Source: Eledone cirrhosa
Lineage: Eukaryota
Length of the DNA: 64,000 nucleotides
Direction: 5' to 3'
NCBI GenBank assembly: GCA_964016885.1
Contig: OZ024752.1
Coordinates: 29,574,001 to 29,638,000 of the forward strand
Of the stretch, positions 1 to 64,000 are shown in pieces. Position numbers and translations under genes: made by a program. The notes below the pieces were generated by a model that saw only the letters and a list, made by a program, of their open reading frames with translations, had not been told where the DNA came from and made no database searches. How positions within the stretch are numbered: the stretch's first letter is position 1; each line of letters starts with the position of its first letter.

Positions 1-3000
1 CTCTCCAACGTAGCAGAGTTGGCAGTAATGGTAGCTACATGTAGAAGTGAGAGCTATCACTCTCCAATGTAGCAGAGTTGGCATTAATGGTAGCTACATG
101 TAGAAGTGAGAGCTATCATTCTCCAATGTAGCAGAGATGGCAGTAATGGTAGCTACATGTAGAAGTGAGAGCTACTACTCTCTAATGTAGTAAAGTTGAC
201 AGTAATGGTAGCTACATGTAGAAGTGAGAGCTACCACTCTCCAATGTAGTAGAGTTGACAGTAATGGTAGCTACATGTGGAAGTGAGAGCTATCACTCTC
301 CAAAGTAGCAGAGTTGGCAGTAATGGTAGCTACATGTAGAAGTGAGAGCTATCAGTCTCCAATGTAGCAGAGTTGGCAGTAATGGTAGCTACATGTAGAA
401 GTGAGAGCTACTACTCTCTAATGTAGTAAAGTTGACAGTAATGGTAGCTACATGTAGAAGTGAGAGCTATCACTCTCCAATGTAGTAGAGTTGACAGTAA
501 TGGTAGCTACATGTGGAAGTGAGAGCTATCACTCTCCAAAGTAGTAGAGTTGGCAGTAATGGTAGCTACATGTAGAATTGAGAACTATCACTCTCCAATG
601 TAGCAGAGTTGGCAGTAATGGTAGCTACATGTAGAACTGAGAGCTATCACTCTCCAATGTAGCAGAGTTGGCAGTAATGGTAGCTACATGTAGAAGTGAG
701 AGCTATCACTCTCCAATGTAGTAGAGTTGGCAGTAATGGTAGCTACATGTAAAAGTGAGAGCTATCACTCTCGAATGTAGCAGAGTTGGGTGTAATGGTA
801 GCTACATGTAGAAGTGAGAGCTCTCACTCTCCAATGTGGTAAAGTTGGAAGTCATGGTAGCTACATGTAGAAGTGAGCGCTATCACTCTCCAACGTAGCA
901 GAGTTGGCAGTAATGATAGCTACATGTAGAAGTGAGAGCTATCACTCTCCAATGTAGCAGAGTTGGCAGTAATGGTAGCTACATGTAGAAGTGAGAGCTA
1001 TCACTCTCCAATGCAGCAGACTTGGCAGTAATGGTAGCTACATGTAGAATTGAGAGCTATCACTCTCCAATGTAGCAGAGTTGGCAGTAATGGTAGCTAC
1101 ATGTGGAAGTGAGAGATATCACTCTCCAATGTGGCAGAGTTGGCAGTAATGGTAGCTACATGTAGAAGTGAGAGCTATCACTCTCCAATGTAGTAGAGTT
1201 GGCAGTAATTGTAGCTACATGTAGAAGTGAGAGCTATCACTCTCCAATGTAGTAGAGTTGGTAGTAATGGTAGCTACATGTAGAAGTGAGAGCTATCACT
1301 CTCCAATGTAGCAGAGTTGACAGTAATAGTAGCTACATGTAGAAGTGAGAGCTATCACTCTCCAATTTAGCAGAGTTGGCAGTAATGGTAGCTATATGTA
1401 GAAGTGAGAACTATCACTCTCCAATGTAGCAGAGTTGGCATTAATGGTAGCTACATGTAGAAGTGAGAGCTATCACTCTCCAATGTAGCAGAGTTGGCAG
1501 TAATAGTAGCTACATGTAGAAGTGAGAGCTATCACTCTCCAATTTAGCAGAGTTGGCAGTAATGGTAGCTACATGTAGAAGTGAGAGCTTTCACTCTCCA
1601 ATGTAGTAGAGTTGGCAGTCATGGTAGCTACATGTAGAAGTGAGAGCTATCACTCTCCAATGTAGCAGAGTTGGGTGCAATGGTAGCTACATGTAGAAGT
1701 GAGAGCTATCACTCTCCAATGTAGCAGAGTTGGCAGTAATGGTAGCTACATGTAGAAGTGAGAGCTACTACTCTCTAATGTAGTAAAGTTGACAGTAATG
1801 GTAGCTACATGTAGAAGTGAGAGCTACCACTCTCCAATGTAGTAGAGTTGACAGTAATGGTAGCTACATGTGGAAGTGAGAGCTATCACTCTCCAAAGTA
1901 GGAGAGTTGGCAGTAATGGTAGCTACATGTAGAAGTGAGAGCTATCAGTCTCCAATGTAGCAGAGTTGGCAGTAATGGTAGCTACATGTAGAAGTGAGAG
2001 CTACTACTCTCTAATGTAGTAAAGTTGACAGTAATGGTAGCTACATGTAGAAGTGAGAGCTATCACTCTCCAATGTAGTAGAGTTGACAGTAATGGTAGC
2101 TACATGTGGAAGTGAGAGCTATCACTCTCCAACGTAGCAGAGTTGGCAGTAATGGTAGCTACATGTAGAAGTGAGAGCTATCACTCTCCAATGTAGTAGA
2201 GTTGGCAGTAATGGTAGCTACATGTAGAATTGAGAACTATCACTCTCCAATGTAGCAGAGTTGGCAGTAATGGTAGCTACATGTAGAACTGAGAGCTATC
2301 ACTCTCCAATGTAGCAGAGTTGGCAGTAATGGTAGCTACATGTAGAAGTGAGAGCTATCACTCTCCAATGTAGCAGAGTTGGCAGTAATGGTAGCTACAT
2401 GTAAAAGTGAGAGCTATCACTCTCCAATGTAGCAGAGTTGGGTGTAATGGTAGCTACATGTAGAAGTGAGAGCTCTCACTCTCCAATGTGGTAAAGTTGG
2501 CAGTAATGGTAGCTACATGTAGAAGTGAGCGCTATCATTCTCCAACGTAGCAGAGTTGGCAGTAATGATAGCTACATGTAGAAGTGAGAGCTATCACTCT
2601 CCAATGTAGCAGAGTTAGCAGTAATGGTAGCTACATGTAGAAGTGAGAGCTATCACTCTCCAATGCAGCAGACTTGGCAGTAATGGTAGCTACATGTAGA
2701 ATTGAGAGCTATCACTCTCCAATGTAGCAGAGTTGGCAGTAATGGTAGCTACATGTGGAAGTGAGAGATATCACTCTCCAATGTGGCAGAGTTGGCAGTA
2801 ATGGTAGCTACATGTAGAAGTGAGAGCTATCACTCTCCAATGTAGTAGAGTTGGCAGTAATTGTAGCTACATGTAGAAGTGAGAGCTATCACTCTCCAAT
2901 TTAGTAGAGTTGGCAGTAATGGTAGCTACATGTAGAAGTGAGAGCTATCACTCTCCAATGTAGCAGAGTTGGCAGTAATAGTAGCTACATGTAGAAGTGA

Positions 3001-6000
3001 GAGCTATCACTCTCCAATTTAGCAGAGTTGGCAGTAATGGTAGCTACATGTAGAAGTGAGAGCTATCACTCTCCAATGTAGTAGAGTTGGCAGTCATGGT
3101 AGCTACATGTAGAAGTGAGAGTTATCACTCTCCAATGTAGCAGAGTTGGGTGCAATGGTAGCTACATGTAGAAGTGAGAGCTATTACTCTCCAACGTAGC
3201 AGAGTTGGCAGTAATGGTAGCTACATGTAGAAGTGAGAGCTATCACTCTCCAATGTAGCAGAGTTGGCAGTAATGGTAGCTACATGTAGAAGTGAGAGCT
3301 ATCACTCTCCAATGCAGCAGACTTGGCAGTAATGGTAGCTACATATAGAATTGAGAGCTATCACTCTCCAATGTAGTAGAGTTGGCAGTAATGGTAGCTA
3401 CATGTAAAAGTGAGAGCTATCACTCTCCAATGTAGCAGAGTTGGGTGTAATGGTAGCTACATGTAGAAGTGAGTGCTCTCACTCTCCAATGTGGTAAAGT
3501 TGGCAGTAATGGTAGCTACATGTAGAAGTGAGAGCTATCACTCTCCAATGTAGCAGAGTTGGCAGTAATGGTAGCTACATGTAGAATTGAGAGCAATTAC
3601 TCTCCAATGTAGCAGACTTGGCAGTAATGGTAGCTACATGTAGAAGTGAGAGCTATCACTCTCCAACGTAGCAGAGTTGACAGTAATGGTAACTACATGT
3701 AGAAGTGTGAGCTATCACTCTCCAATGTAGTAGACTTGGCCGTAATGGTAGCTGCATGTAGAAGTGAGAGCTATCACTCTCCAATGTAGTAGAGTTGGCA
3801 GTAATGGTAGCTGCATGTAGAAGTGAGAGCTATCAATCTCCAATGTAGTAGAGTTGGCAGTAATGGTAGCTACATGTAGAAGTGAGAGCTATCACTCTCC
3901 AATGTAGTCGAGTTGGCAGTAATGGTAGCTACATGTGGAAGTGAGAGCTATCAATCTCCAATGTAGTAGAGGTGGCAGTAATGGTAGCTACATGTAAAAG
4001 TGAGAGCTATCACTCTCCAATGTAGCAGAGTTGGGTGTAATGGTAGCTACATGTAGAAGTGAGAGCTCTCACTCTCCAATGTGGTAAAGTTGGCAGTAAT
4101 CGTAGCTACATGTGGAAGTGAGCGCTATCACTCTCCAACGTAGCAGAGTTGGCAGTAATGATAGCTACATGTAGAAGTGAGAGCTATCACTCTCCAATGT
4201 AGCAGAGCTGGCAGTAATGGTAGCTACATGTAGAAGTTAGAGCTATCACTCTCCAATGCAGCAGACTTGGCAGTAATGGTAGCTACATGTAGAATTGAGA
4301 GCTATCACTCTCCAATGTAGCAGAGTTGGCAGTAATGGTAGCTACATGTGGAAGTGAGAGATATCACTCTCCAATGTGGCAGAGTTGGCAGTAATGGTAG
4401 CTACATGTAGAAGTGAGAGCTATCACTCTCCAATGTAGTAGAGTTGGCAGTAATTGTAGCTACATGTAGAAGTGAGAGCTATCACTCTCCAATGTAGTAG
4501 AGTTGGCAGTAATGGTAGCTACATGTAGAAGTGAGAGCTATCACTCTCCAATGTAGCAGAGTTGGCAGTAATAGTAGATACATGTAGAAGTGAGAGCTAT
4601 CACTCTCCAATGTAGCAGAGTTGGCAGTAATGGTAGCTACATGTAGAAGTGAGAGCTATCACTCTCCAATGTAGTAGAGTTGGCAGTCATGGTAGCTACA
4701 TGTAGAAGTGAGAGCTATCACTCTCCAATGTAGCAGAGTTGGGTGCAATGGTAGCTACATGTAGAAGTGAGAGCTATCACTCTCCAACGTAGCAGAGTTG
4801 GCAGTAATGGTAGCTACATGTAGAAGTGAGAGCTATCACTCTCCAATGTAGCAGAGTTGGCAGTAATGGTAGCTACATGTAGAAGTGAGAGCTATCACTC
4901 TCCAATGCAGCAGACTTGGCAGTAATGGTAGCTACATATAGAATTGAGAGCTATCACTCTCCAATGTAGCAGAGTTGGCAGTAATGGTAGCTACATGTGG
5001 AAGTGAGAGATATCACTCTCCAATGTAGTAGGGTTGGCAGTAATGGTAGCTACATGTAGAAGTGAGAGCTATCACTCTCCAATGTAGCAGACTTGGCAGT
5101 AATGGTAGCTACATGTAGAAGTGAGAGCTATCACTCTCCAACGTAGCAGAGTTGGCAGTAATGGTAGCTACATGTAGAATTGAGAGCAATCACTCTCCAA
5201 TGTAGCAGACTTGGCAGTAATGGTAGCTACATGTAGAAGTGAGAGCTATCACTCTCCAACGTAGCAGAGTTGACAGTAATGGTAACTACATGTAGAAGTG
5301 TGAGCTATCACTCTCCAATGTAGTAGATTTGGCCGTAATGGTAGCTGCATATAGAAGTGAGAGCTATCACTCTCCAATGTAGTAGAGTTGGCAGTAATGG
5401 TAGCTGCATGTAGAAGTGAGAGCTATCACTCTCCAATGTAGCAGAATTGGCAGTAATGGTAGCTACATGTAGAAGTGAGAGCTATTACTCTCCAACGTAG
5501 CAGAGTTGGCAGTAATGGTAGCTACATGTAGAAGTGAGAGCTATCAATCTCCAATGTAGTAGAGTTGGCAGTAATGGTAGCTACATGTAGAAGTGAGAGC
5601 TATCACTCTCCAATGTAGTCGAGTTGGCAGTAATGGTAGCTACATGTGGAAGTGAGAGCTATCAATCTCCAATGTAGTAGAGTTGGCAGTAATGGTAGCT
5701 ACATGTAGAAGTGAGAACTATCGCTCTCCAATGTAGCAGAGTTGGCAGTAATGGTAGCTACATGTAGAAGTGAGTGATATCACTCTCCAATGTAGCAGAG
5801 TTGACAGTAATGATAGCTACATGTAGAAGTGAGAGCTATCACTCTCCAATGTAGTAGAGTAGGCAGTAATGGTAGCTACATGTAGAAGTGAGAGCTATCA
5901 TTCTCCAACGTAGCAGAGTTGACAGTAATGATACCTACATGTAGAAGTGAGAGCTATCACTCTCCAATGTAGCAGAGTTGACATTAATGAAAGCTACATG

Positions 6001-6617
6001 TAGAAGTGAGAGCTATCACTCCCCAATGTAGCAGAGTTGGCAGTAATGGTAGCTACATGTAGAAGTGAGAGCTATCACTCTCCAATGTAGCAGAGTTGGC
6101 AGTAATGTTAGCTACATGTAGAAGTGAGAGCTATCACTCTCCAATGTAGCAGAGTTGGCAGTAATGGTAGCTACATGTAGAAGTGAGTGATATCACTCTA
6201 CAATGTAGAAGAATTGACAGTAATGATAGCTACATGTAGAAGTGAGAGCTATCACTCTCCAATATAGTAGAGTAGGCAGTAATGGTAGCTACATGTAGAA
6301 ATGAGAGCTATCGCTCTCCAATGTAGCAGAGTTGACAGTAATGATAGCTACATGTAGAAGTGAGAGCTGTCACTCTCCAATGTAGTAGAGTTGGCAGTAA
6401 TGTTAGCTACATGTAGAAATGAGAGCTATCACTCTCCAATGTAGTAGAGTTGGCAGTAATGTTAGCTACATGTAGAAATGAGAGCTATCACTCTCCAATG
6501 TAGTAGAGTTGGCAGTAATGTTAGCTACATGTAGAAATGAGAGCTATCACTCTCCAATGTAGTAGAGTTGGCAGTAATGTTACCTACATGTAAAAATGAG
6601 AGCTATCACTCTCCAAT
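1..6617. repeat. 59-bp tandem satellite, about 112 units in the window, continuing past the left edge
   Basis: Consensus ctctccaatgtagcagagttggcagtaatggtagctacatgtagaagtgagagctatca. The motif shifts 1 nt per 60-nt line, and stop codons occur in all frames. Confidence 0.98.
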
Positions 6618-7022: not shown

Positions 7023-7787
7023 CTCTAAAAGGTGAGTTTTGGTTTTACAAGCCTTAGTGAAGGAAATTCATTGAAGAAATGTGTTTAACTCAATAGAATA
7101 TAGAAAATATGTACTGTTAATATCATGATAGCTACATCTTCCACTAAATTTGTAAAAATTCAAAAGCAATATCAATCATCATTTTCTCTCTCCTTGAATT
7201 ATGTTCTCTGTCTTGTTATTTTCCTTTCTCAACAACCCCTTATATTTTAGTGCTAGGGGTGAGAAAATAAAAAAAAATATCTGATCTTCCTTTGGAATAG
7301 CCTCCAGCTGCAAAAACTTCCAGATGCTTTTACTCTTTTACTAGTTCCAATCACTGGTCTACAACTATGCTGAAGAGTAAGTCTTTAAGAGTTTTACTCC
7401 ATTATACTGACTCCAGTACTTTGTCTGATACATATTTTATTGACCTCAAAAGAAGGAAAAGCAGAGTTGACTTGGGTAGGACTTAAATTATAAAGAGATA
7501 TGTCCAAATTCCACAATGTATTTTATTGATTATCCAAATTAAGAAATAAGGTTGTCAACATACCTGATTGGGTTCTTCTGATTTACTATTTCTAGGTGTC
7601 AAACTGAAATCATGTTCTGTCAACTCTTTATCATCTTTTGAAGTTTTAAGCAAAGCTGAAAAGAAAATGAACCAAAAAGAATTATATGTTTTCTGTTTAG
7701 AATAAGCTAGTTTGGAATATAAAGAAGCTGAAAATAGTTGACAATATATGTGTAAATTAAGATATCTTAAAAGTCTGGAATAATAAT

Positions 7788-8273: not shown

Positions 8274-10234
8274 CTAATGGAGCATGCATGCTTCGTTCCT
8301 TTCCAGTCTGCGCAGGTCCTCTGCACGTAATGCCCATGTCTCACTGCCATGTAGCATTGCTATTTGTATACAGGCATCATACAATCTGCCTTTCATTTTT
8401 AGAGAGAAACCTTTTGTGGCCAACAGCGGTATAAGCTCTCTGAACTTTTTCCATCCCGTTCTGACTCTGGCTACTGTACTTTCAGAACACCCTCCACCAC
8501 TGCTGATTTCATCACCCAGGTAACGGAAAGTGTCCACTATTTCTATAGAACCATCTGGGCAATAGAAGGAGCTAGTATCCTGTGGACACTTGCTACTTAT
8601 TGCACCTGAGCCTTGGCCACATATAAAGTCTACGTTCTTAGATAGTTTACCTGTGATCCCACTACATCTTTTGTGTACCCATACTTTGCATTTGGGACAT
8701 AAAATGGAATTTCTGCCTACTCCTTTCCTACACACTGAGCATGGCCATTTCCCTGAGGGCACCTGTGCCCTATTTTCCTTTCTACAAACTAGAACTTTAG
8801 TCCTAGACAAGTTAACTTTAAGGCCTTTTGATTCTAGGCCATGCTTCCATGTTTGGAATTTCTTCTCTAGTTCAGCCATTGATTCAGCTATGAGCGTTAG
8901 ATCATCTGCGTATAGGAGTTCTCATGGGCAGCCAGTCTTGAATTCCTCTGTTATAGCCTGAAGGACAATAATAAATAGGAGGGGCTAAGGACAGAGCCTT
9001 CATGAGCGCCAACTTTGACACTAAATTCTTCACAATATTCATTGTTAATTCTAACCTTACTGACTGTTTCATTATACATAGCTTGTATAGCTCTCACAAG
9101 CCATTCATCTACACCTAGTTTTCTAAGAGCCCACCAGATAATGGAGCAGGGGACTCTGCCAAAGGTTTCTCCAGGTCTACAAAAGCTAAGTAGAGGGGTT
9201 TACTTTTAGCTAGGTACTTCTCTTGTAGTTGTCGTACAAGGAAAAGAGCGTCTGTGGTACTTTTACCTGACACAAACCCAAACTGCATTTCATCTAGATC
9301 AATTCACTCTCTGATTAGTTGCGCTATAACTCTTTCGGTGACCTTCATGACTTGGTCAACTAACTTATTGCCTCTATAGTTTCCCCTATCTACCTTTACC
9401 CTTGTAGCAGTTAATGATGATGCTGCTACGCCAGTCTTTCAGTAAGACCCCATTCTGTATTACTTGGTTAACTATACGGGTGAACATAGTGTGTCCCACC
9501 ATACCAGATGCCTTCAACATCTCAGCAACTATCTCCGAAGGCCCAGCTGCCTTGCCTATCTTCATATCTTTGATTGCCTTATTTATTATACTTCCTTTAA
9601 CTTGCACTGCTGGTCCTTCTATTGGATCGATTTGGGGCAGACTATCTTTTTCCCATTTATTCTCCTCATTTAGTAGCCTTTCGTAGTGACACTTCCAAGC
9701 TACCTTCTTATCAGTATCAGTGAGGGCAAGTACACCATCGTCATTACAGACACACTTCTCCCCGACAATATCACGGTTTTCCTTGACACATTGTCTAGCA
9801 ATCCTGAACACCTCACATTTTTGGTCCTCACGTTGTAGAACATGCTTGAACTTTCTATCCTCTGCTTCCCTTTTTGCAAGGTACACTTGTCTCCTAGCTT
9901 CTCTCCTGGCCACTTGATAGTGCTCTCTACTTCCCCCATCCTGCCATACTTTCCAAGTCTGCTTTTTTTTGGCCTTGACTGTCTCTTCCACCTTACTGTT
10001 CCACCACCAAGTTACTCTCCTCCTGCCAATAGGTCTGCTCCAGCCACAGATTTCATCCGTTGCTTTCAGCAGATTCACTTTCAAGAATTTCCACTGTTCC
10101 TCTATATCGCACGTCCCTAATTGCTCTTCCTTATTGTCAAAGGCATCAAGTAATAAGCTTTTAAATTTGTCACTGGCTACGGGGTCCTTCAACTTCCATA
10201 TTCTTCTCCTGAACTGAAATCCACCAAACATCAC
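8274..10234 (-). mobile_element. Decayed RTE-clade LINE (reverse transcriptase region with an inserted Cys-rich PHD-like finger), frameshifts and stops
   Basis: ORF pieces 9386-10234 (WWWNSKVEETVKAKK, KIGKAAGP, DWRSSIIINCYKGKG) and 8274-8879 (GLKVNLSRTKVL, FRYLGDEI, MLHGSETW). The catalytic LLYADDL at about 8895-8920 is preceded by an in-frame TGA. Confidence 0.92.
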
Positions 10235-10464
10235 CTGTTATTGTTTTCAGTCTTGTATTATATTACTAACACACCATTTTTCCTTGCATTGGGAATTTGT
10301 TGAGGGAATTCTATTGGAGTAGTTACTTCATTTAATGACATGCTAGCAGGGGAAGCAGATGCTAAACTGAGGATGATGTTTTAACATAAATCCCTCTTGT
10401 TGACTCATTAAAAGACACTGCTTTTTTACTGATATGAAATACATAGGCAGTTTGATTTTGGAAA

Positions 10465-11291: not shown

Positions 11292-12273
11292 CGAAATTGT
11301 CAACTTTAATATTGTTGAATTGTCCTTTTTCAAGATTGGCTTCTGCTTTCTCATTACTATATATTTCTTTCAAAACTTTTCTTTCCTCAACATCATTGCA
11401 TGGTTTGACAGCATCACTGTATATGTTTTCAGAAGTATTGTTTCTTCTTTCAATATGATCATATGTTAGGTCCTCCACTGATTTTCTTTTTATAGTAGCA
11501 TATAATGGTTCCTTCACATCTTTTTTCAAGTCGCTTTCATCAAATGACATTGCTGTAGCTTTATTGTTTAAAACATTGGTATACATTAGTGTCATATCAA
11601 CAGGTAGTTTATTAGATTCAGTGTTTAAAATATCATCAGATGTTGGTTCTATATGAGCATACAGTGATTTAGATTTATTAAAAGCTGGTTCAATATTAGT
11701 TTGTTGTATTAAAATATCATCAGATGTTGGTCCTATACAAGCATATGGTGATTCATGTTCAGTAAAAGCTGGTTCAATCTTAGTTTGTTGTATTAAAATA
11801 TCATCAGATATTGGTCCTACATAATAATACGGTGATTTAGTTTTATTAAAAGCTGGTTCAATATTAGTTTGTTGTATTAAAATATCATCAGATGTTGGTC
11901 CTATACAAGCATATGGTGATTCATGTTCAGTAAAAGCTGGTTCAATCTTAGTTTGTTGTATTAAAATATCATCAGATGTTGGTCCTATATAATAATACGG
12001 TGATTTAGGTTTAGTAAAAGCTGGTTCAATATTAGTTTGTTGTATTAAAATATCATTAGATATTTTAGTGTCAGTCTTTATTGTTCCAATGCTGTTAAAG
12101 GCCAGATCAACATCTATCTCTGTCATTATATCTTCAAATATTCTGTTCTCACTATCTGATATTGCTGAGTTGTTTGGTACTTCTATGGTAGCATATTCTG
12201 CTTCAATGTTAGAAGAGGGGTTTTCAATATTTGATTTTCTTGTTGCTTCATCAGCATTCATATACACAGGACT
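11292..12273 (-). CDS. Large internal coding exon: tyrosine-motif-rich, probably disordered signalling region (receptor cytoplasmic tail or docking protein) with five 28-aa repeats
   Basis: Stop-free for about 327 codons in AT-rich DNA. Strong acceptor (long T tract + AG at 12275-12274), phase 0 start SPVYMN, donor G|GTAAAT at 11291. Motifs include VYMN, EYATI, SPYYYI, SPYACI, SLYAHI, PLYATI, LTYDHI and IYSN. The ORF tail beyond the donor runs into a MITE. Confidence 0.8.
11627..12060 (-). repeat. 84-bp coding tandem repeat (5 units, alternating A/B types)
   Basis: aaaatatcat recurs at 11627, 11711, 11795, 11879, 11963 and 12047. Translation SDDILIQQT(N/K)IEPAF...SPY..IGPT. Confidence 0.95.
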
Positions 12274-20262: not shown

Positions 20263-21028
20263 AGAGATGTAGTGGGATAGCAGGCAAACTAACAGGTAGG
20301 GAGAAATACGTATGCAGTAGATGTACAGGGAAATTTGACAGTAGGAGTCGCAGTGATAGACACATTTTTCAAATGCCGGCGGGTGCTATAGAAGTGGTTG
20401 ATAGCTTCCGGTACCTAAGTGATCAGATTAACATGGGAGGTTGGGGGTGATCCGAGGCCATAGTATCTAGAATAAGGACGGGTTGGAAGAAGTTTAGGGA
20501 GCTGTTTCCTCTGTTGACAAAGAAGGGTTTCTCCTTGCGTACGAAAGGCCGGTTATATGATGCCTGTGTGAGATGCACGATGCTGCATGGTAGTGAGACA
20601 TGGGCAGCAACTGCAGAGGATATGCGACGGCTGGAGAGAAATGAGGCAAGCATGCTCTATTGGATGTGTAATGTCAATGTGCGTGAACGACCAAGCATAG
20701 ATGAGTTGAGAGAGAAACTGGGTATAAGAGGGATAAGTTGTGTGCAGGAGAGAAGACTGCGATGGTATGGACATGTGATGTTCATGGAGGATGACCGCTG
20801 GGTAAAGAAGTGCCAAGAAATCTTAGTAGAAGGAAGACGCAATAGGGGAAGACCACGAAAAACATGGGCGGAGGTGGTGAGAGCAGACCTCTGATCACTG
20901 AAGCTCACAGAGGAAATGCTGAAGGACCATGACAAGTGGAGAGATGCTGTTCTGAATAGGACCCGTTTCACCCTTGCAAGCAGGAAAAAGGGGACGTAAA
21001 ATGATGATGATGATGATGATGATGATGA
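20263..21028 (+). mobile_element. 5'-truncated RTE LINE 3' end, same family as 8274-10234
   Basis: WVHKRCSGI...KGFSLRTKGRLYDACV..MLHGSETW..RRLRWYGHV..RGRPRKTW and a (GAT)n tail. Confidence 0.92.
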
Positions 21029-29053: not shown

Positions 29054-29215
29054 TATGAGTACCTATGATCATAATGTTGTGGGTTCGATTCCTGGATTAA
29101 GTTGTGTGTTGTGTCCTTGAGCATAAACACATCATTTCACATTGCTCCAGTATACTCAGCTGAAAATGAGTAACAGCAATAGCTGGTGGGAAGGGGGTTA
29201 ACAACAATAACAACA
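29032..29215 (+). mobile_element. CORE-like tRNA SINE whose head is the last 26-bp unit
   Basis: B-box gggttcgattcc, CORE-like tgtgttgtgtccttgagc...ttcacattgctccagt..ctcagctg, and an (aac)n tail. Confidence 0.85.
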
Positions 29216-29314
29216 CCACCCCCATTACCCACTGCCATCACTTCCACTGCCACCAGCACGACCACCCCCAACACCACCACCACCACCATTACCACTGCCA
29301 TCACTTCCACTGCC

Positions 29315-29345
<31 letters not shown>

Positions 29346-32290
29346 CCACCACCATTACCACTGCCATCACTTCCACTGCCACCAGCACCACCCCCAACAC
29401 CACCACCACCATTACCACTGCTATCACTTCCACTGCCACCAGCACCACCCCCAACACCACCACCACCATTACCACTGCTATCACTTCCACTGCCACCAGC
29501 ACCACCCCCAACACCACCACCACCACCATTACCACTGCCATCACTTCCACTGCCACCAGCACCACCCCCAACACCACCACCACCACCATTACCACTGCCA
29601 TCACTTCCACTGCCACCAGCACCACCCCCAACACCACCACCACCACCATTACCCACTGCCATCACTTCCACTGCTACCAACACCACCCCCAACACCACCA
29701 CCACCATTACCACTGCTATCACTTCCACTGCCACCAGCACCACCCCCAACACCACCACCACCACCATTACCACTGCTATCACTTCCACTGCCACCAGCAC
29801 CACCCCCAACACCACCACCACCACCATTACCACTGCTATCACTTCCACTGCCACCAGCACCACCCCCAACACCACCACCACCACCATTACCACTGCTATC
29901 ACTTCCACTGCCACCAGCACCACCCCCACCACCACCACCACCACCATTACCACTGCCATCACTTCCACTGCCACCAGCACCACCCCCAACACCACCACCA
30001 CCACCATTACCACTGCTATCACTTCCACTGCCACCAGCACCACCCCCAACACCACCACCACCACCATTACCACTGCCATCACTTCCACTGCTACCAACAC
30101 CACCCCCAACACCACCACCACCATTACCACTGCCATCACTTCCACTGCCACCAGCACCACCCCCAACACCACCACCACCATTACCACTGCCATCACTTCC
30201 ACTGCCACCAGCACCACCCCCAACACCACCACCACCATTACCACTGCTATCACTTCCACTGCCACCAGCACCACCCCCAACACCACCACCACCACCATTA
30301 CCACTGCTATCACTTCCACTGCCACCAGCACCACCCCCAACACCACCACCACCATTACCACTGCCATCACTTCCACTGCCACCAGCACCACCCCCAACAC
30401 CACCACCACCACCATTACCACTGCTATCACTTCCACTGCCACCAGCACCACCCCCAACACCACCACCACCACCATTACCACTGCTATCACTTCCACTGCC
30501 ACCAGCACCACCCCCAACACCACCACCACCACCATTACCACTGCCATCACTTCCACTGCTACCAACACCACCCCAACACCACCACCACCATTACCACTGC
30601 CATCACTTCCACTGCCACCAGCACCACCCCCAACACCACCACCACCATTACCACTGCCATCACTTCCACTGCCACCAGCACCACCCCCAACACCACCACC
30701 ACCATTACCACTGCTATCACTTCCACTGCCACCAGCACCACCCCCAACACCACCACCACCACCATTACCACTGCTATCACTTCCACTGCCACCAGCACCA
30801 CCCCCAACACCACCACCACCATTACCACTGCCATCACTTCCACTGCCACCAGCACCACCCCCAACACCACCACCACCACCATTACCACTGCTATCACTTC
30901 CACTGCCACCAGCACCACCAGCACCACCCCCACCACCACCACCACCACCATTACCACTGCCATCACTTCCACTGCTACCAACACCACCCCCAACACCACC
31001 ACCACCATTACCACTGCCATCACTTCCACTGCCACCAGCACCACCCCCAACACCACCACCACCATTACCACTGCCATCACTTCCACTGCCACCAGCACCA
31101 CCCCCAACACCACCACCACCATTACCACTGCCATCACTTCCACTGCCACCAGCACCACCCCCAACACCACCACCACCATTACCACTGCCATCACTTCCAC
31201 TGCCACCAGCACCACCCCCAACACCACCACCACCACCATTACCACTGCCATCACTTCCACTGCCACCAGCACCACCCCCAACACCACCACCACCACCATT
31301 ACCACTGCCATCACTTCCACTGCTACCAACACCACCCCCAACACCACCACCACCACCATTACCACTGCCATCACTTCCACTGCCACCAGCACCACCCCCA
31401 ACACCACCACCACCACCACCATTACCACTGCTATCACTTCCACTGCCACCAGCACCACCCCCAACACCACCACCACCATTACCACTGCCATCACTTCCAC
31501 TGCCACCAGCACCACCCCCAACACCACCACCACCATTACCACTGCTATCACTTCCACTACTACCAGCACCACCCCCAACACCACCACCACCACCATTACC
31601 ACTGCCATCACTTCCACTGCCACCAGCACTACCCCCAACACCACCACCACCACCATTACCACTGCCATCACTTCCACTACTACCAACACCACCCCCAACA
31701 CCACCACCACCACCATTACCACTGCCATCATTTCCACTGCCCCCCCCCATTACCACTGCCATCACTTCCACTGCCACCAGCCCCCCCCCATTACCACTGC
31801 CATCACTTCCACTGCTACCAACACCACCACCAACAACACCACTACCACCACCATTACCACTGCCATCACTTCCACTGCTACCAACACCACCACCAACACC
31901 ACCACCCCAACACCACCACCATTACCACTGCTATCACTTCCACTACTACCAGCACCACCCCCAACACCACCACCACCACCATTACCACTGCCATCACTTC
32001 CACTGCTACCAACACCACCCACAACACCACCACCTCAACACCACCACCATTACCACTGCCATCACTTCCACTGCCACCAGCACCCCCCAACCAGCAACCC
32101 CCCAACACCACCACCATTACCCCCCCCACACTACCACTACCACCACCACCACCACCATTACCACTGCCATCACTTCCACTGCCCTCCCAACACCACAACT
32201 ACCACTACCACCACCACTTCCACTGCCACCAGCACCACCCCCAACACCACCACAAACACCACCACCACCACCACCACCAACACCACTAAT
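29215..32290. repeat. 57/60-bp (CAC)-derived minisatellite
   Basis: Unit attaccactgccatcacttccactgccaccagcaccacccccaac(acc)4-5, with single-base indels that shift the frame. Confidence 0.97.
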
Positions 32291-41478: not shown

Positions 41479-41756
41479 TTTTTTTTCTGTAAAATTTTCT
41501 GTAGCAAGGAAAATTTAATTTCAATACACTTTTTTACACTCTTTTTTAACACTCTTTACCTGTTTAACAATAACAACGACAATACTAACAACAACAACAT
41601 CATCGCAAAAGAGCAATGACATACAAGATAAAGTACCAAATATAGAAAATTGAAAGGTTTATGCCTGTAGCATTTGACAGATAACAGATTTGGTATGGTG
41701 GAGGAGTTTGAACATCATTAGAGAACAAAAAAAAAAAAGAAAAAAGAAATTCTTGC

Positions 41757-41879
41757 CTGTAAGCTGCTAGTGATATCATCTAGTAGATTGTTACTCTGTG
41801 GTTCCTCAGAAGATTCTTGTCTTAGAGTTGATAGAGAAGAGGAGGAGGTTGATGGTAAAGTCATGTTATTATCATTGGT
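41757..41879 (-). CDS. Candidate 123-bp Ser-rich exon (TNDNNMTLPSTSSSSLSTLRQESSEEPQSNNLLDDITSSLQ)
   Basis: Acceptor ctatttcacAG, 41 stop-free codons, phase 0/0, non-canonical donor CAG|GCAAGA. Phase-compatible with the exon starting at 12273. Confidence 0.5.
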
Positions 41880-47154: not shown

Positions 47155-48430
47155 AGTGGTAGAGTACTCAGTCCATGGGACGAATTAGGTAGAAGTAGTT
47201 ACACAACAGTTAGTTCCCCATACCGAGAACAATTGTTTCACCTTAGCGGATCCTCAGCTCATAATGGACATGGTTATATGGAACAGGAAGGACAACCGTA
47301 CGAACGCGCACGTGCAGAAACGGTCACTTCACTGAGGCAATACTAAATTGCGTGCGAGAGGTGTAAGGGACATAACTGCTAAAGTCCAAAAGTTTCTAGT
47401 TGATAAGAAAATTAGGTTGTTGTCGAAATTCAATCCGGAGCTTTGTAGTTATGTAAGAGGTGTTTCCATACATGTGGACACCATGTGAAGAATTCATTTC
47501 TTAAGTTTAGGCAATCGCTATTGCGTAATCTCTTTAGAATATTTATTCGTTCATCAATACATAGTCCCCACGACGGATTGCCCCTTGCGTATGGCTTGGA
47601 CTTAGTGATGGCTTTCCATTGAATGGAGTAGTCTATACTTGAGTCCTTGAGGGACCATACATGGCTCGCGAGTTTCGTGGATGAACGTCTGTCCGGGTAC
47701 CTAAAAGTCAACTGGGGGTTCAGGAAACGTTCCTTAAATCGGCCCTCCGCCATACCCACATAGGATTTGACCTCCTGTGGTTGATTTGGTCGGTTGGAAG
47801 TGACCACAACTTCATAAACAACAGCGGGTGTGTTGCATTGCTGTTGAAGGGGACAAGCTTCGGGCTTACGGCAAGAGCACGCTGGTGGGATGTTGCTCTT
47901 AGGGCTGTTGGTGATGTGGGCCTTCATGTTCTTAGCGCAGGAGTATCGTAGTTTTACTTTGTGTCGGTTAAAGATGGAGCGGTATTTATGACCTATGGGA
48001 AAGTGCCTATCTAAGAGGGCTAGAAATTTTTTTGCCTACATTGGTTTTAACGTTGAGTGAGAAGGGAGGAGAGAACCAGATAGTTTGTCTATTGTTACGC
48101 TTTGTTTTCTTATTGCTGTTGTTGTTATGGGAGAGTAAGTGATAGGTTGCGAGAAGCCGCTGTTAGCCAACGCCGTGTTATAGTAGGGTGCCGCCCTGTC
48201 AAAGATAGCCTTATTAGAGGAGAGGTTTGAGATTCTAGTACTGATATTATTTACGAAGTTTCTAAAAACTGTGGGAGGGTGGCATGAGTCCTTGTGAATG
48301 TAATTGAGTTTTTCGTTTAGCTTATGGAAGGGTCTGTAGGTGTGTGTGCGAAGGTCTAAATTACTGTCTAAGAAATCTACACTAGAGAGGATGGTAGCTA
48401 CTGTTATCCTAAGTCCTAACTCATTGAAGG
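47155..48430 (-). mobile_element. Penelope-like retroelement (RT C-terminus, GIY-YIG endonuclease, 3' pLTR), frameshifted
   Basis: CSCRKPEACPLQQQC..VVYEV..KSYVGMAEGRFKERF..H..STKLASHVWSLK..C..E..LNLRNE..CPH. Upstream frames carry PT..VGKKFLALLDRHFP..IFNRHKVKL.YSC and YRPFHKLNE..YIH..S.HPP. Confidence 0.9.
47225..47260 (-). ncRNA. Minimal type I hammerhead ribozyme motif in the Penelope terminus
   Basis: Minus strand gag-CTGAGGA-tccgctaaggt-GAAA-caattg-TT-ctc: core boxes, short stem I and palindromic stem III. Confidence 0.6.
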
Positions 48431-48508
48431 TAGAAGCTAAGTCTTTCTACCTTCATTGTCCATGTCATTTGCTTTGTTATTTCTGTTTGTCTTTTGCATA
48501 TACATGTA

Positions 48509-61174: not shown

Positions 61175-61377
61175 TAAAAGGGTTGGCTGAAAAGTTCATA
61201 AGCTGACCAAGAGACTCTCATGGAATGATCAAATGAGGTTTATTTTTCAACGTAGTCCCTTGAAAGAAACAATGCGGTTAGTAACAAGAAGAGTTGAAAT
61301 TAAAGCATGCAAGATTTCACAGCACTAGCATCAATTCTTCATAGTCAGCCTATAAACTGTTCAGCCTACCCACGTAT
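61175..61377. mobile_element. mariner-like MITE monomer
   Basis: agggttggctgaaaagttcata ... tataaactgttcagcctacccacgta; same family as 32563 and 34232. Confidence 0.88.
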
Positions 61378-61384
61378 ATAGCTA

Positions 61385-64000
61385 GACTTTCTTTGAAGAC
61401 CTTCTTCTGCTGTCCAGCTCTCCTGAGCTGTAATGCTTGCTTGAGGGAGGGGGAGGGGTTCTTTTCTGAAGACCTTCTGCTGTCCAGCTCTCCCAGGCCA
61501 AAACACTTGCTTGGGGAGGGGGAGGGGTTCTTTTCTGAAGACTTTCTGCTGTCCAGCTCTCCCAGTCCAAAACACTTGCTTGGGGAGGGGGAGGGGTTCT
61601 TTTCTGAAGACTTTCTGCTGTCCAGCTCTCCCAGTCCAAAACACTTGCTTGGGGAGGGGGAGGGGTTCTTTTCTGAAGACTTTCTGCTGTCCAGCTCTCC
61701 CAGTCCAAAACACTTGCTTGGGGAGGGGGAGGGGTTCTTTTCTGAAGACTTTCTGCTGTCCAGCTCTCCCAGGCCAAAACACTTGCTTGGGGAGGGGGAG
61801 GGGTTCTTTTCTAAAGACCTTCTGCTGTCCAGCTCTCCCAGGCCAAAACACTTGCTTGGGGAGGGGGAGGGGTTCTTTTCTGAAGACTTTCTGCTGTCCA
61901 GCTCTCCCAGTCCAAAACACTTGCTTGGGGAGGGGGAGGGGTTCTTTTCTGAAGACTTTCTGCTGTCCAGCTCTCCCAGTCCAAAACACTTGCTTGGGGA
62001 GGGGGAGGGGTTCTTTTCTGAAGACTTTCTGCTGTCCAGCTCTCCCAGGCCAAAACACTTGCTTGGGGAGGGGGAGGGGTTCTTTTCTGAAGACTTTCTG
62101 CTGTCCAGCTCTCCCAGTCCAAAACACTTGCTTGGGGAGGGGGAGGGATTCTTTTCTGAAGACTTTCTGCTGTCCAGCTCTCCCAGTCCAAAACACTTGC
62201 TTGGGGAGGGGGAGGGGTTCTTTTCTGAAGACTTTCTGCTGTCCAGCTCTCCCAGGCCAAAACACTTGCTTGGGGAGGGGGAGGGGTTCTTTTCTGAAGA
62301 CCTTCTGCTGTCCAGCTCTCCCAGTCCAAAACACTTGCTTGGGGAGGGGGAGGGGTTCTTTTCTGAAGACTTTGTGCTGTCCAGCTCTGCCAGTCCAAAA
62401 CACTTGCTTGGGGAGGGGGATGGATTCTTTTCTGAAGACTTTCTGCTGTCCAGCCCTCCCAGGCCAAAACACTTGCTTGGGGAGGGGGAGGGGTTCTTTT
62501 CTGAAGACTTTCTGCTGTCCAGCTCTCCCAGTCCAAAACACTTGCTTGGGGAGGGGGAGGGGTTCTTTTCTGAAGACTTTCTGCTGTCCAGCCCTCCCAG
62601 GCCAAAACACTTGCTTGGGGAGGGGGAGGGGTTCTTTTCTGAAGACTTTCTGCTGTCCAGCCCTCCCAGGCCAAAACACTTGCTTGGGGATGGGGAGGGG
62701 TTCTTTTCTGAAGACTTTGTGCTGTCCAGCTCTCCCAGTCCAAAACACTTGCTTGGGGAGGGGGAGGGGTTCTTTTCTGAAGACTTTCTGCTGTCCAGCC
62801 CTCCCAGGCCAAAACACTTGCTTGGGGAGGGGGAGGGGTTCTTTTCTGAAGACTTTCTGCTGTCCAGCCCTCCCAGGCCAAAACACTTGCTTGGGGAGGG
62901 GGATGGATTCTTTTCTGAAGACTTTCTGCTGTCCAGCCCTCCCAGGCCAAAACACTTGCTTGGGGAGGGGGAGGGGTTCTTTTCTGAAGACTTTCTGCTG
63001 TCCAGCTCTCCCAGTCCAAAACACTTGCTTGGGGAGGGGGAGGGGTTCTTTTCTGAATACTATCTGCTGTCCATCTCTCCCAGTCCAAAACACTTGCTTG
63101 GGGAGGGGGAGGGATTCTTTTCTGAAGACCTTCTGCTGTCCAGCTCTCCCAGTCCAAAACACTTGCTTGGGGAGGGGGAGGGATTCTTTTCTGAAGACCT
63201 TCTGCTGTCCAGCTCTCCCAGTCCATAACACTTGCTTGGGGAGGGCGAGGGATTCTTTTCTGAAGACCTTCTGCTGTCCAGCTCTCCCAGTCCAAAACAC
63301 TTGCTTGGGGAGGGGGAGGGATTCTTTTCTGAAGACTTTCTGCTGTCCAGCTCTCCCAGTCCAAAACACTTGCTTGGGGAGGGGGAGGGGTTCTTTTCTG
63401 AAGACCTTCTGCTGTCCAGCTCTCCCAGTCCAAAACACTTGCTTGGGGAGGGGGAGGGATTTTTTTCTGAAGACCTTCTGCAGTCCAGCTCTCCCAGTCC
63501 AAAACACTTGCTTGGGGAGGGGGAGGTGTTCTTTTCTGAAGACTTTCTGCTGTCCAGCTCTCCCAGTCCAAAACACTTGCTTGGGGAGGGGGAGGGGTTC
63601 TTTTCTGAATACTATCTGCTGTCCATCTCTCCCAGTCCAAAACACTTGCTTGGGGAGGGGGATGGATTCTTTTCTGAAGACCTTCTGCTGTCCAGCTCTC
63701 CCAGTCCAAAACACTTGCTTGGGGAGGGGGAGGGATTCGTTTCTGAAGACCTTCTGCTGTCCAGCTCTCCCAGTCCAAAACACTTGCTTGGGGAGGGGGA
63801 GGGATTCTTTTCTGAAGACCTTCTGCTGTCCAGCTCTCCCAGTCCAAAACACTTGCTTGGGGAGGGGGAGGGATTCTTTTCTGAAGACTTTCTGCTGTCC
63901 AGCTCTCCCAGTCCGAAACACTTGCTTGGGGAGGGGGAGGGGTTCTTTTCTGAAGACTTTCTGCTGTCCAGCTCTGCCAGTCCAAAACACTTGCTTGGGG
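61385..64000. repeat. 69-bp G-tract satellite, about 38 units, continuing past the right edge
   Basis: Unit cttttctgaagactttctgctgtccagctctcccagtccaaaacacttgcttggggagggggaggggtt. Confidence 0.98.

What the first reader, a model, noticed from the sequence alone, without database searches (positions are those of the whole stretch)
11292..12273. Exon encoding a tandemly amplified array of ITIM/EPIYA-like phosphotyrosine motifs
Seen: a spliceable ~327-codon exon with about 12 tyrosine motifs. Each of five 28-aa repeats ends in an ITIM-consensus (S/I/V/L)xYxx(I/V/L): SPYYYI, SPYACI, SPYYYV, SPYACI, SLYAHI. LTYDHI also fits. EPLYATI and EAEYATI resemble the EPIYATI motif, and YMN, YTN and YSN fit the YxN pattern. 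Established: ITIMs recruit SHP-type tandem-SH2 phosphatases, YxN recruits Grb2, and EPIYA copy number tunes CagA signalling. Inference: this is a receptor tail (possibly the juxtamembrane region of a receptor PTP) or a docking protein whose SH2-binding valency is set by a coding VNTR. That could be an uncharacterised immune or allorecognition-type signalling module in a mollusc.
Basis: partly seen in the sequence, partly recalled or inferred. Interest (0 to 1): 0.75.

Follow-up and report, generated by a model that had tools for sequence, protein, structure and literature searches.

The report
Octopod membrane-shaper's shifting tyrosine-motif array
This is a real coding exon of a cytoplasmic ankyrin/coiled-coil protein (UACA/RAI14/ANKRD24-like) of an octopus relative, not a receptor tail; its tyrosine motifs likely serve as docking sites for signalling proteins, and different octopod lineages have amplified different pieces of the exon.

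Summary
The exon (12273-11292, minus strand, 327 codons) and the five 84-bp units are there as described. It is not a receptor or PTP tail. It lies in an ~815-kb gene whose Octopus orthologues have N-terminal ankyrin repeats, a C-terminal coiled coil and no transmembrane segment; NCBI names them UACA- or ANKRD24-like (the N-Ank group). Both splice sites fall where the Octopus gene models join their exons. The exon is only 31-36% identical to its orthologues, and three different segments were amplified separately: a Tyr-free 38-aa unit (7-12 copies, Octopus), a 19-aa YDD(V/I) unit (3-6 motifs, Octopus and an unnamed octopod) and the 28-aa unit (5 copies, this genome only). The 'ITIM' tyrosine of that unit is Asp in all four orthologues, and no YxN is conserved, so the ITIM, Grb2 and immune readings fail. 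What is conserved: four tyrosines, one (E/D)PLYA(S/T)I motif and 8-12 Yxx(I/V/L) motifs per exon, more than shuffles give. Best reading: a likely disordered phosphotyrosine docking linker on a membrane/actin scaffold. Phosphorylation, SH2 binding and expression in this species are untested.

The parts
11292..12273 (-). Large internal coding exon (327 codons, phase 0 to 1): tyrosine-motif linker between the ankyrin repeats and the coiled coil. The rest of the gene lies outside the window on G000 C12, minus strand: start codon at 30306105, five ankyrin exons found between 30236023 and 29784774, two short linker exons near 29721800 and 29719800, coiled-coil exons from about 29516400 (largest 29502461-29501415), stop near 29491135
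   Evidence: Open frame and splice signals; matches O. vulgaris P0003 at E 2.9e-29 and an unnamed octopod P0014 at E 4.5e-10; junctions collinear with the Octopus models; outside exons
11641..12060 (-). Segment B: five in-frame 84-bp (28-aa) units, each with an invariant Tyr codon and Ile/Val at +3; single copy with Asp at that position in the orthologues
   Evidence: TRF; unit alignment; unit coordinates and codons
11491..11511 (-). EPLYATI motif, the best-conserved motif of the exon: (E/D)PLYA(S/T)I in all five lineages compared
12184..12204 (-). EAEYATI motif; Tyr and +3 Ile kept in three Octopus species, His in place of Tyr in the unnamed octopod
11412..11583 (-). Stretch holding the four tyrosines invariant in all lineages compared (Y231, Y258, Y271, Y285)
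41757..41879 (-). Upstream exon (41 codons, phase 0 to 0) with a GC donor; splices in frame to 12273
   Evidence: tblastn E 1.9e-4 to the Octopus protein; 21 of 40 aligned residues identical and in-frame join; sequence
7564..7655 (-). Downstream exon (phase 1 to 0); splices in frame from 11292
   Evidence: E 8.6e-4; 14 of 30 identical

Best explanation
The stretch is the large linker exon of a cytoplasmic ankyrin-repeat/coiled-coil protein (UACA/RAI14/ANKRD24-like, N-Ank group) of an octopod, and its Yxx(I/V) motifs likely act as a multi-site phosphotyrosine docking platform. Shown: gene structure, orthology to the Octopus proteins, no TM segment, three separately amplified in-frame segments, and conserved tyrosines. 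Inferred from vertebrate N-Ank work: the N-terminal amphipathic helix and ankyrin repeats would bind and bend membrane, and the coiled coil would self-associate. Inferred from motif likeness: Src/Abl-type kinases would phosphorylate the linker and recruit SH2 proteins (Csk or SHP2 types at EPLYA(S/T)I, Nck types at YDD(V/I) in Octopus), coupling tyrosine-kinase signals to membrane and actin remodelling. The exon is prone to unequal-crossover duplications, tolerated because they keep the frame. The five-unit array in this genome is a recent lineage-specific amplification, and its tyrosines are the least supported sites.
For: Orthology: the coiled-coil exon hits 3 proteins among 7989 scored, all Octopus; source names are UACA, ANKRD24-like or uncharacterized; Pfam finds only ankyrin families in the full-length one. 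Eight predicted exons join with 0 stops over 555 codons, collinear with the Octopus protein. Motifs: in the collapsed O. sinensis exon 8 of 10 Tyr have I/V/L at +3 against 1.6 expected (p 5e-5); in the unnamed octopod 7 of 8 (0 of 20000 shuffles reached it); outside the exon 6 of 18 Tyr do (Fisher p 0.023). 4 of 7 alignable window Tyr are invariant against 51 of 210 columns overall (Fisher p 0.06). (E/D)PLYA(S/T)I occurs once in 5 of 5 proteins. In the array the Tyr codon and the +3 I/V are kept in 5 of 5 units, while 14 of 17 changes cluster in a 33-nt window around them (scan p 0.009). Literature: EPLYA in p140Cap is an Abl substrate that binds Csk (PMC3561454, abstract and outline); YDDV in ADAP binds SLP-76, Nck and others (PMC2908683, passages); N-Ank anatomy (PMC13712265, introduction and passages).
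Against: No phosphorylation, binding or localisation data. No RNA evidence seen for this species, and the Octopus proteins are predicted models. The repeat Tyr is not conserved (Asp in 4 of 4 orthologues). The largest expansion in Octopus (38-aa unit) carries almost no Tyr, so amplification of this exon does not need tyrosines. Differences among the five units are 16 non-synonymous to 1 synonymous, which does not differ from neutral (p 0.09). Tyr invariance alone is borderline (p 0.06). Four Octopus YxxI/V sites have lost the Tyr or the +3 residue in this genome. The three Octopus species are close relatives, so they are not independent points. No tree against vertebrate N-Ank proteins was built.
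Confidence: 0.6

Rival explanations
1. Neutral spacer: the exon is a low-constraint linker whose minisatellites expand and contract by unequal crossover; the amplified tyrosines are passengers, and at most one or two old motifs matter.
For: 31-36% identity to orthologues against 60-80% in the ankyrin exons. The Tyr-free 38-aa unit is amplified 7-12 times in Octopus. The repeat Tyr differs from the orthologous Asp by what could be one base (GAT/TAT; inferred, no orthologue DNA seen). Unit differences are compatible with neutrality. The genome is rich in tandem repeats (98 TRF rows in the window).
Against: Yxx(I/V/L) is enriched after collapsing the repeats in all three lineages tested. The PLYA core is invariant. 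Tyr and +3 are fixed in 5 of 5 units while their neighbours vary.
Confidence: 0.27
2. The Yxx(I/V) motifs are unphosphorylated sorting signals for clathrin adaptor mu subunits (Yxx-hydrophobic rule, recalled), linking a membrane-bending protein to endocytosis.
For: The conserved feature is Tyr plus a hydrophobic +3 residue, not the -2 residue; N-Ank proteins shape membranes (PMC13712265).
Against: +3 is nearly always Ile or Val (9 of 9 here, 12 of 12 in O. sinensis), whereas mu2 is recalled to prefer Leu/Phe/Met. The acidic flanks and EPLYA match kinase and SH2 sites.
Confidence: 0.08
3. One reading: cytoplasmic tail of an immune or allorecognition receptor, or juxtamembrane part of a receptor PTP, with an ITIM array.
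For: 7 of 16 Tyr fit the loose ITIM pattern in this genome.
Against: Flanking exons encode ankyrin repeats and a coiled coil, in frame. No TM segment. No PTP match on the contig among 72. The ITIM pattern is absent in the three Octopus species.
Confidence: 0.02

Closest known systems
N-Ank subfamily 1: ankycorbin/RAI14, UACA, ANKRD24, ANKRD35 (PMC13712265, introduction and passages)
   Same: Short basic amphipathic N-terminus, 5-7 ankyrin repeats, disordered middle, C-terminal coiled coil, no TM segment; NCBI names for the Octopus orthologues are UACA-like and ANKRD24-like.
   Different: A tyrosine-motif linker with coding VNTRs is not mentioned in that paper (0 occurrences of 'tyrosine'). No KRAP-type syndapin motif was found by my pattern in the O. 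sinensis protein. Vertebrate sequences were not compared.
p140Cap/SRCIN1 and Pragmin, host EPIYA-type scaffolds (PMC3561454 abstract; PMC3593179 passages and section 11)
   Same: A cytoplasmic scaffold with an EPLYA motif; in p140Cap it is phosphorylated by Abl and binds Csk.
   Different: No homology tested or claimed. Those carry one or two such motifs; here one conserved EPLYA(S/T)I sits among 8-12 Yxx(I/V/L) motifs. The octopod motif is one conservative change from EPxYAxV, which that review reports as under-represented in mammalian proteomes.
ADAP/FYB YDDV motifs (PMC2908683, passages)
   Same: The 19-aa unit amplified in Octopus carries YDDV/YDDI/YEDI; ADAP's YDDV binds SLP-76, Nck and others when phosphorylated.
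   Different: This genome lacks those motifs (the two positions read SDDI and YTNV); ADAP has two motifs, not a tandem array.
CagA and Tarp EPIYA-type arrays (PMC3593179, passages)
   Same: Variable tandem copy number of tyrosine-motif segments.
   Different: Bacterial injected effectors; likeness of design only, no homology.
ITIM-bearing inhibitory receptors
   Same: Loose (S/I/V/L)xYxx(I/V/L) matches in this genome.
   Different: No ectodomain or TM segment; the -2 position is not conserved.

Membership tests
N-Ank subfamily 1 (RAI14/UACA/ANKRD24/ANKRD35) | Short array of ankyrin repeats near the N-terminus | tested here: met
   Pfam Ank, 5 stretches in P0004; five ankyrin exons found in G000
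N-Ank subfamily 1 (RAI14/UACA/ANKRD24/ANKRD35) | N-terminal amphipathic helix | tested here: inconclusive
   First 9 residues: moment 0.64-0.65, top 2% of the windows of P0008; first 11 residues only top 18%; net charge +4. Sequence-level only.
N-Ank subfamily 1 (RAI14/UACA/ANKRD24/ANKRD35) | C-terminal coiled-coil region | tested here: inconclusive
   Judged by eye from the E/K/Q/L-rich exon and from source names; no coiled-coil predictor run and no Pfam hit
N-Ank subfamily 1 (RAI14/UACA/ANKRD24/ANKRD35) | Phylogenetic grouping with vertebrate members | not tested
   No vertebrate N-Ank sequence came from the tools; the 60 PDB rows shown were generic ankyrin proteins; names come from NCBI annotation
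N-Ank subfamily 1 (RAI14/UACA/ANKRD24/ANKRD35) | Membrane binding and bending | not testable with these tools
   Needs liposome assays
ITIM-bearing receptor | Transmembrane segment and ectodomain upstream of the motifs | tested here: not met
   Upstream exons are ankyrin and linker; best hydropathy window 1.36, in an ankyrin repeat
ITIM-bearing receptor | Conserved (S/I/V/L)xYxx(I/V/L) | tested here: not met
   7 in this genome; 0 in each of three Octopus species, 1 in the unnamed octopod
Receptor protein tyrosine phosphatase | PTP catalytic domain downstream | tested here: not met
   0 of 72 PF00102 matches on contig C12; downstream exons run to the stop codon without one; none in the orthologues
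Dof/BCAP/BANK docking proteins | DBB domain before the ankyrin repeats | tested here: not met
   No DBB in the full-length orthologue; the genome search was blank and uninformative, as no control rang
EPIYA-type SH2 scaffolds (works-like comparison) | E-P-x-Y-A motif present and conserved | tested here: met
   1 per protein in 5 of 5, one with Asp for Glu
EPIYA-type SH2 scaffolds (works-like comparison) | Tyrosine phosphorylation and SH2 binding | not testable with these tools
   Needs phosphoproteomics and pull-downs

The most novel reading that the evidence does not exclude
Octopods turned their N-Ank membrane shaper into a multivalent SH2 scaffold, and selection holds the NUMBER of Yxx(I/V) sites (8-12) rather than their positions: where this lineage lacks four sites that Octopus has, it carries a Tyr seven residues upstream amplified five-fold, while Octopus amplified a neighbouring YDD(V/I) unit instead. 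That would be a natural test of valency-tuned phosphotyrosine signalling on a protein whose vertebrate relatives shape neurons.
Probability: 0.2. Interest if true: 0.72.

Novelty: new variant of a known kind. Interest (0 to 1): 0.42.

Why it matters
The immune-receptor idea is out. What remains is an N-Ank-type protein whose linker holds a conserved EPIYA-like motif and has been re-amplified three separate times in octopods. Vertebrate N-Ank proteins shape dendrites and stereocilia rootlets (PMC13712265). If the linker is phosphorylated, it would connect tyrosine kinases to membrane shaping in cephalopods and offer a compact case for asking whether motif number, not motif position, is under selection. 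If it is not, this is an ordinary low-complexity exon with coding minisatellites.

Tried and rejected
Receptor PTP: rejected. Dof/BCAP: rejected. Grb2-type YxN: 0 of 3 conserved. Word-based homologue searches with the exon found nothing; HMMER over 1.84 billion representatives found 3 proteins, one of them (P0015, trout SMCR8 with a Thr/Pro repeat, 18% identity) a chance repeat match that I dropped. RNA: no RNA holder listed. The three runs listed are contigs of one sample that cross both splice sites unspliced, with no joints, so they behave as DNA, may be the assembly's source and say nothing on expression; the intron to the 7655 exon was not covered with reads. The ESM Atlas gave no result. 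AlphaFold on a 5-row alignment gave mean pLDDT 31.8: compatible with disorder but uninformative at this depth; the low-confidence strands in the repeats were not followed up and no fold search was run. Two short coiled-coil exons of the Octopus model (12 and about 33 aa) were not found in the 65 kb after the 7655 exon (53% of that interval is tandem repeat); the frame is kept without them. My first exon join used a wrong acceptor for one linker exon and gave 31 stops; the acceptor 35 bases further on gave 0. Papers: octopus + uveal autoantigen + ankyrin 0 hits; cephalopod + RAI14 0; six-term motif-turnover search 0; RAI14 with tyrosine phosphorylation 2 hits, one of which lists RAI14 in a table under a section on phosphotyrosine profiles (PMC2967544, one passage seen, no site given); coding VNTR + octopus gave nothing on this gene (listing only). 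The library lacks most subscription papers, and no supplements were read. Earlier findings of this scan: nothing in 4 look-ups. No complex was predicted, since phosphotyrosine cannot be modelled there.

Full report
Observation. The minus strand from 12273 to 11292 is an open frame of 327 codons plus one base, between a poly-T/AG acceptor and a G|GTAAAT donor; the other five frames hold 6-65 stops. An 84-bp tandem repeat of 5.2 copies lies at 11625-12061, with a 168-bp higher-order period. It is single-copy in the 3.0-Gb genome by DNA search (1 match).

Finding the gene. Word-based searches with the exon gave nothing. I fetched 200 kb on each side and scanned for splice-bounded frames. This gave ankyrin-like exons upstream and a 349-codon E/K/Q-rich exon 72 kb beyond the window's left end, all on the minus strand. 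That exon hit 3 proteins among 7989 scored, from Octopus vulgaris, O. sinensis and O. bimaculoides, at 52-53% identity. Their sources call them uncharacterized, UACA-like or ANKRD24-like, with a few low-complexity names such as dentin sialophosphoprotein-like and TRIP11-like. Pfam finds only ankyrin families in the full-length one. An independent HMMER search with the window exon itself returned the same O. vulgaris protein (E 2.9e-29), an unnamed Logan protein (E 4.5e-10) and one chance repeat match. So the exon and the coiled-coil exon belong to one gene.

Gene model. tblastn with the O. sinensis protein placed exons in order along contig C12 from the start codon at 30306105 to the stop near 29491135, about 815 kb. 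Inside the window lie three exons: 41879-41757 (GC donor), 12273-11292 and 7655-7564. Eight consecutive predicted exons, from the third ankyrin exon found to the 7655 exon, join with 0 stops over 555 codons. The junction before the exon reads DDITSSLQ|SPVY here and DDITSSLQ-GPVF in Octopus, and the junction after it falls where the Octopus proteins pass into the next exon's sequence. The unnamed Logan protein, called on a 1.3-kb contig, reads past the donor into a tail like the window's own intron read-through, so the donor is conserved. These are homology arguments resting on predicted models; no spliced read of this species was seen. Two short exons of the Octopus model were not located.

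Not a receptor. The full-length orthologue has no transmembrane-like window (best 1.36, within an ankyrin repeat). It starts with a short basic, amphipathic stretch that is also present in this genome. None of 72 PTP-domain matches lies on this contig. The layout is that of the N-Ank proteins: amphipathic helix, short ankyrin array, disordered middle and coiled coil, as described for ankycorbin/RAI14, UACA and ANKRD24 (PMC13712265; introduction and passages read). Subfamily membership rests on this layout and on NCBI names; I built no tree.

The exon across octopods. With arrays collapsed, the exon aligns end to end with its orthologues at 31-36% identity over 210-214 columns, while O. sinensis and the unnamed octopod share 73%. 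Three segments are amplified in different lineages. Segment A (38 aa, almost free of Tyr) has 12, 10 and 7 copies in O. vulgaris, O. sinensis and O. bimaculoides, and 1 here and in the unnamed octopod. Segment B (28 aa) has 5 copies here and 1 in the other four. Segment C (19-aa spacing, Y-D/E-D/E-I/V) gives 4, 6, 6 and 3 motifs in those four; here the two matching positions read SDDI and YTNV. The O. sinensis isoform models differ by 4, 5 or 6 C motifs, and O. bimaculoides models differ in A copies; this may be modelling error inside repeats. B and C share a related start (shuffle p 0.001), which points to older duplications in the same region.

Which motifs hold up. The tyrosine of the five B units is Asp in 4 of 4 orthologues. 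Loose ITIMs number 7 here, 0 in each Octopus species and 1 in the unnamed octopod. None of the three YxN sites is conserved. What is shared is Tyr with Ile/Val/Leu at +3: 9 here, then 10, 12, 12 and 8. After collapsing, the counts exceed 20000 shuffles in all three lineages tested: 5 vs 1.6-1.9 (p 0.009-0.025), 8 vs 1.6 (p 5e-5), 7 vs 1.4 (none reached). Four of 7 alignable window tyrosines are invariant against 51 of 210 columns (p 0.06), and (E/D)PLYA(S/T)I occurs once in 5 of 5 proteins. Among the five B units there are 17 distinct base changes, 16 of them non-synonymous, not different from neutral (p 0.09). 14 of the 17 fall in a 33-nt window around the Tyr (scan p 0.009), yet the Tyr codon and the +3 I/V never change class. 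Gene conversion over the first half of the unit could give the same clustering.

Mechanism. The most likely reading is a flexible linker carrying several phosphotyrosine docking sites on a membrane- and actin-associated scaffold. EPLYA in p140Cap is phosphorylated by Abl and binds Csk (PMC3561454, abstract and outline). YDDV in ADAP binds SLP-76, Nck and other SH2 proteins (PMC2908683, passages). EPIYA-type segments of CagA bind SHP2 or Csk, and EPxYAxV is reported as under-represented in mammalian proteomes (PMC3593179, passages and section 11). All of this is motif likeness; nothing here shows phosphorylation. The structure prediction was uninformative (mean pLDDT 31.8). The main rival is that the repeats are neutral, which the Tyr-free A expansion shows to be possible in this very exon. 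The direction of the gains and losses cannot be set without an outgroup; none was found.

Novelty and score. The gene is a new member of a known group. The tyrosine-motif linker with three separate coding VNTR expansions is a variant I did not find described in five searches of the held library (one search found only the Ankrd24 paper). The immune-receptor reading that gave the first score is not supported. Interest 0.42; the bolder reading, that motif number is held constant by turnover, I put at 0.2.

Noticed in passing
window 41755-41756 (-): GC donor (CAG|GCAAGA) on the exon just upstream of the finding: a GC-AG intron of 29.5 kb.
   Followed up: partly
G000 C12:29491135-30306105: The gene spans about 815 kb with gaps of up to about 180 kb between located exons, largely filled with satellites; 49% of a 464-kb stretch was masked as tandem repeat.
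   Followed up: partly
window 61345-64000 and on for about 33 kb (L022-L025): 69-bp satellite with stop-free frames of hundreds to thousands of codons in several frames; intronic to this gene.
   Followed up: no
window 29214-32286: 60-bp C/A-rich array open for about 1000 codons in all three plus-strand frames; intronic, most likely a non-coding minisatellite.
   Followed up: no
window 1-6617: 59-bp satellite, 112 copies, inside the intron after the 7655 exon.
   Followed up: no
window 8274-10237, 20451-20894, 47430-48446: Broken frames that look like LINE reverse-transcriptase and Penelope-like element fragments (labels recalled, not tested).
   Followed up: no
G000 C12, about 29449100-29453900 (L014), minus strand: Two long WD40-repeat exons of the next gene downstream, resembling CIAO1/CIA1 (name recalled, not tested).
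   Followed up: no
window 11409: One base differs in contigs of 2 of 3 runs of one sample; it falls on codon 289 (Val) of the exon, possibly an allele.
   Followed up: partly
window 7563 down to G000 C12:29516420: Two short coiled-coil exons of the Octopus model (12 and about 33 aa) were not found; lost, diverged or hidden in repeats.
   Followed up: partly
G000 C22:17643413, C14:9149860-9164507, C10:12086702: Several intronless PTP domains inside frames of 390-1250 codons, three of them close together on C14.
   Followed up: no
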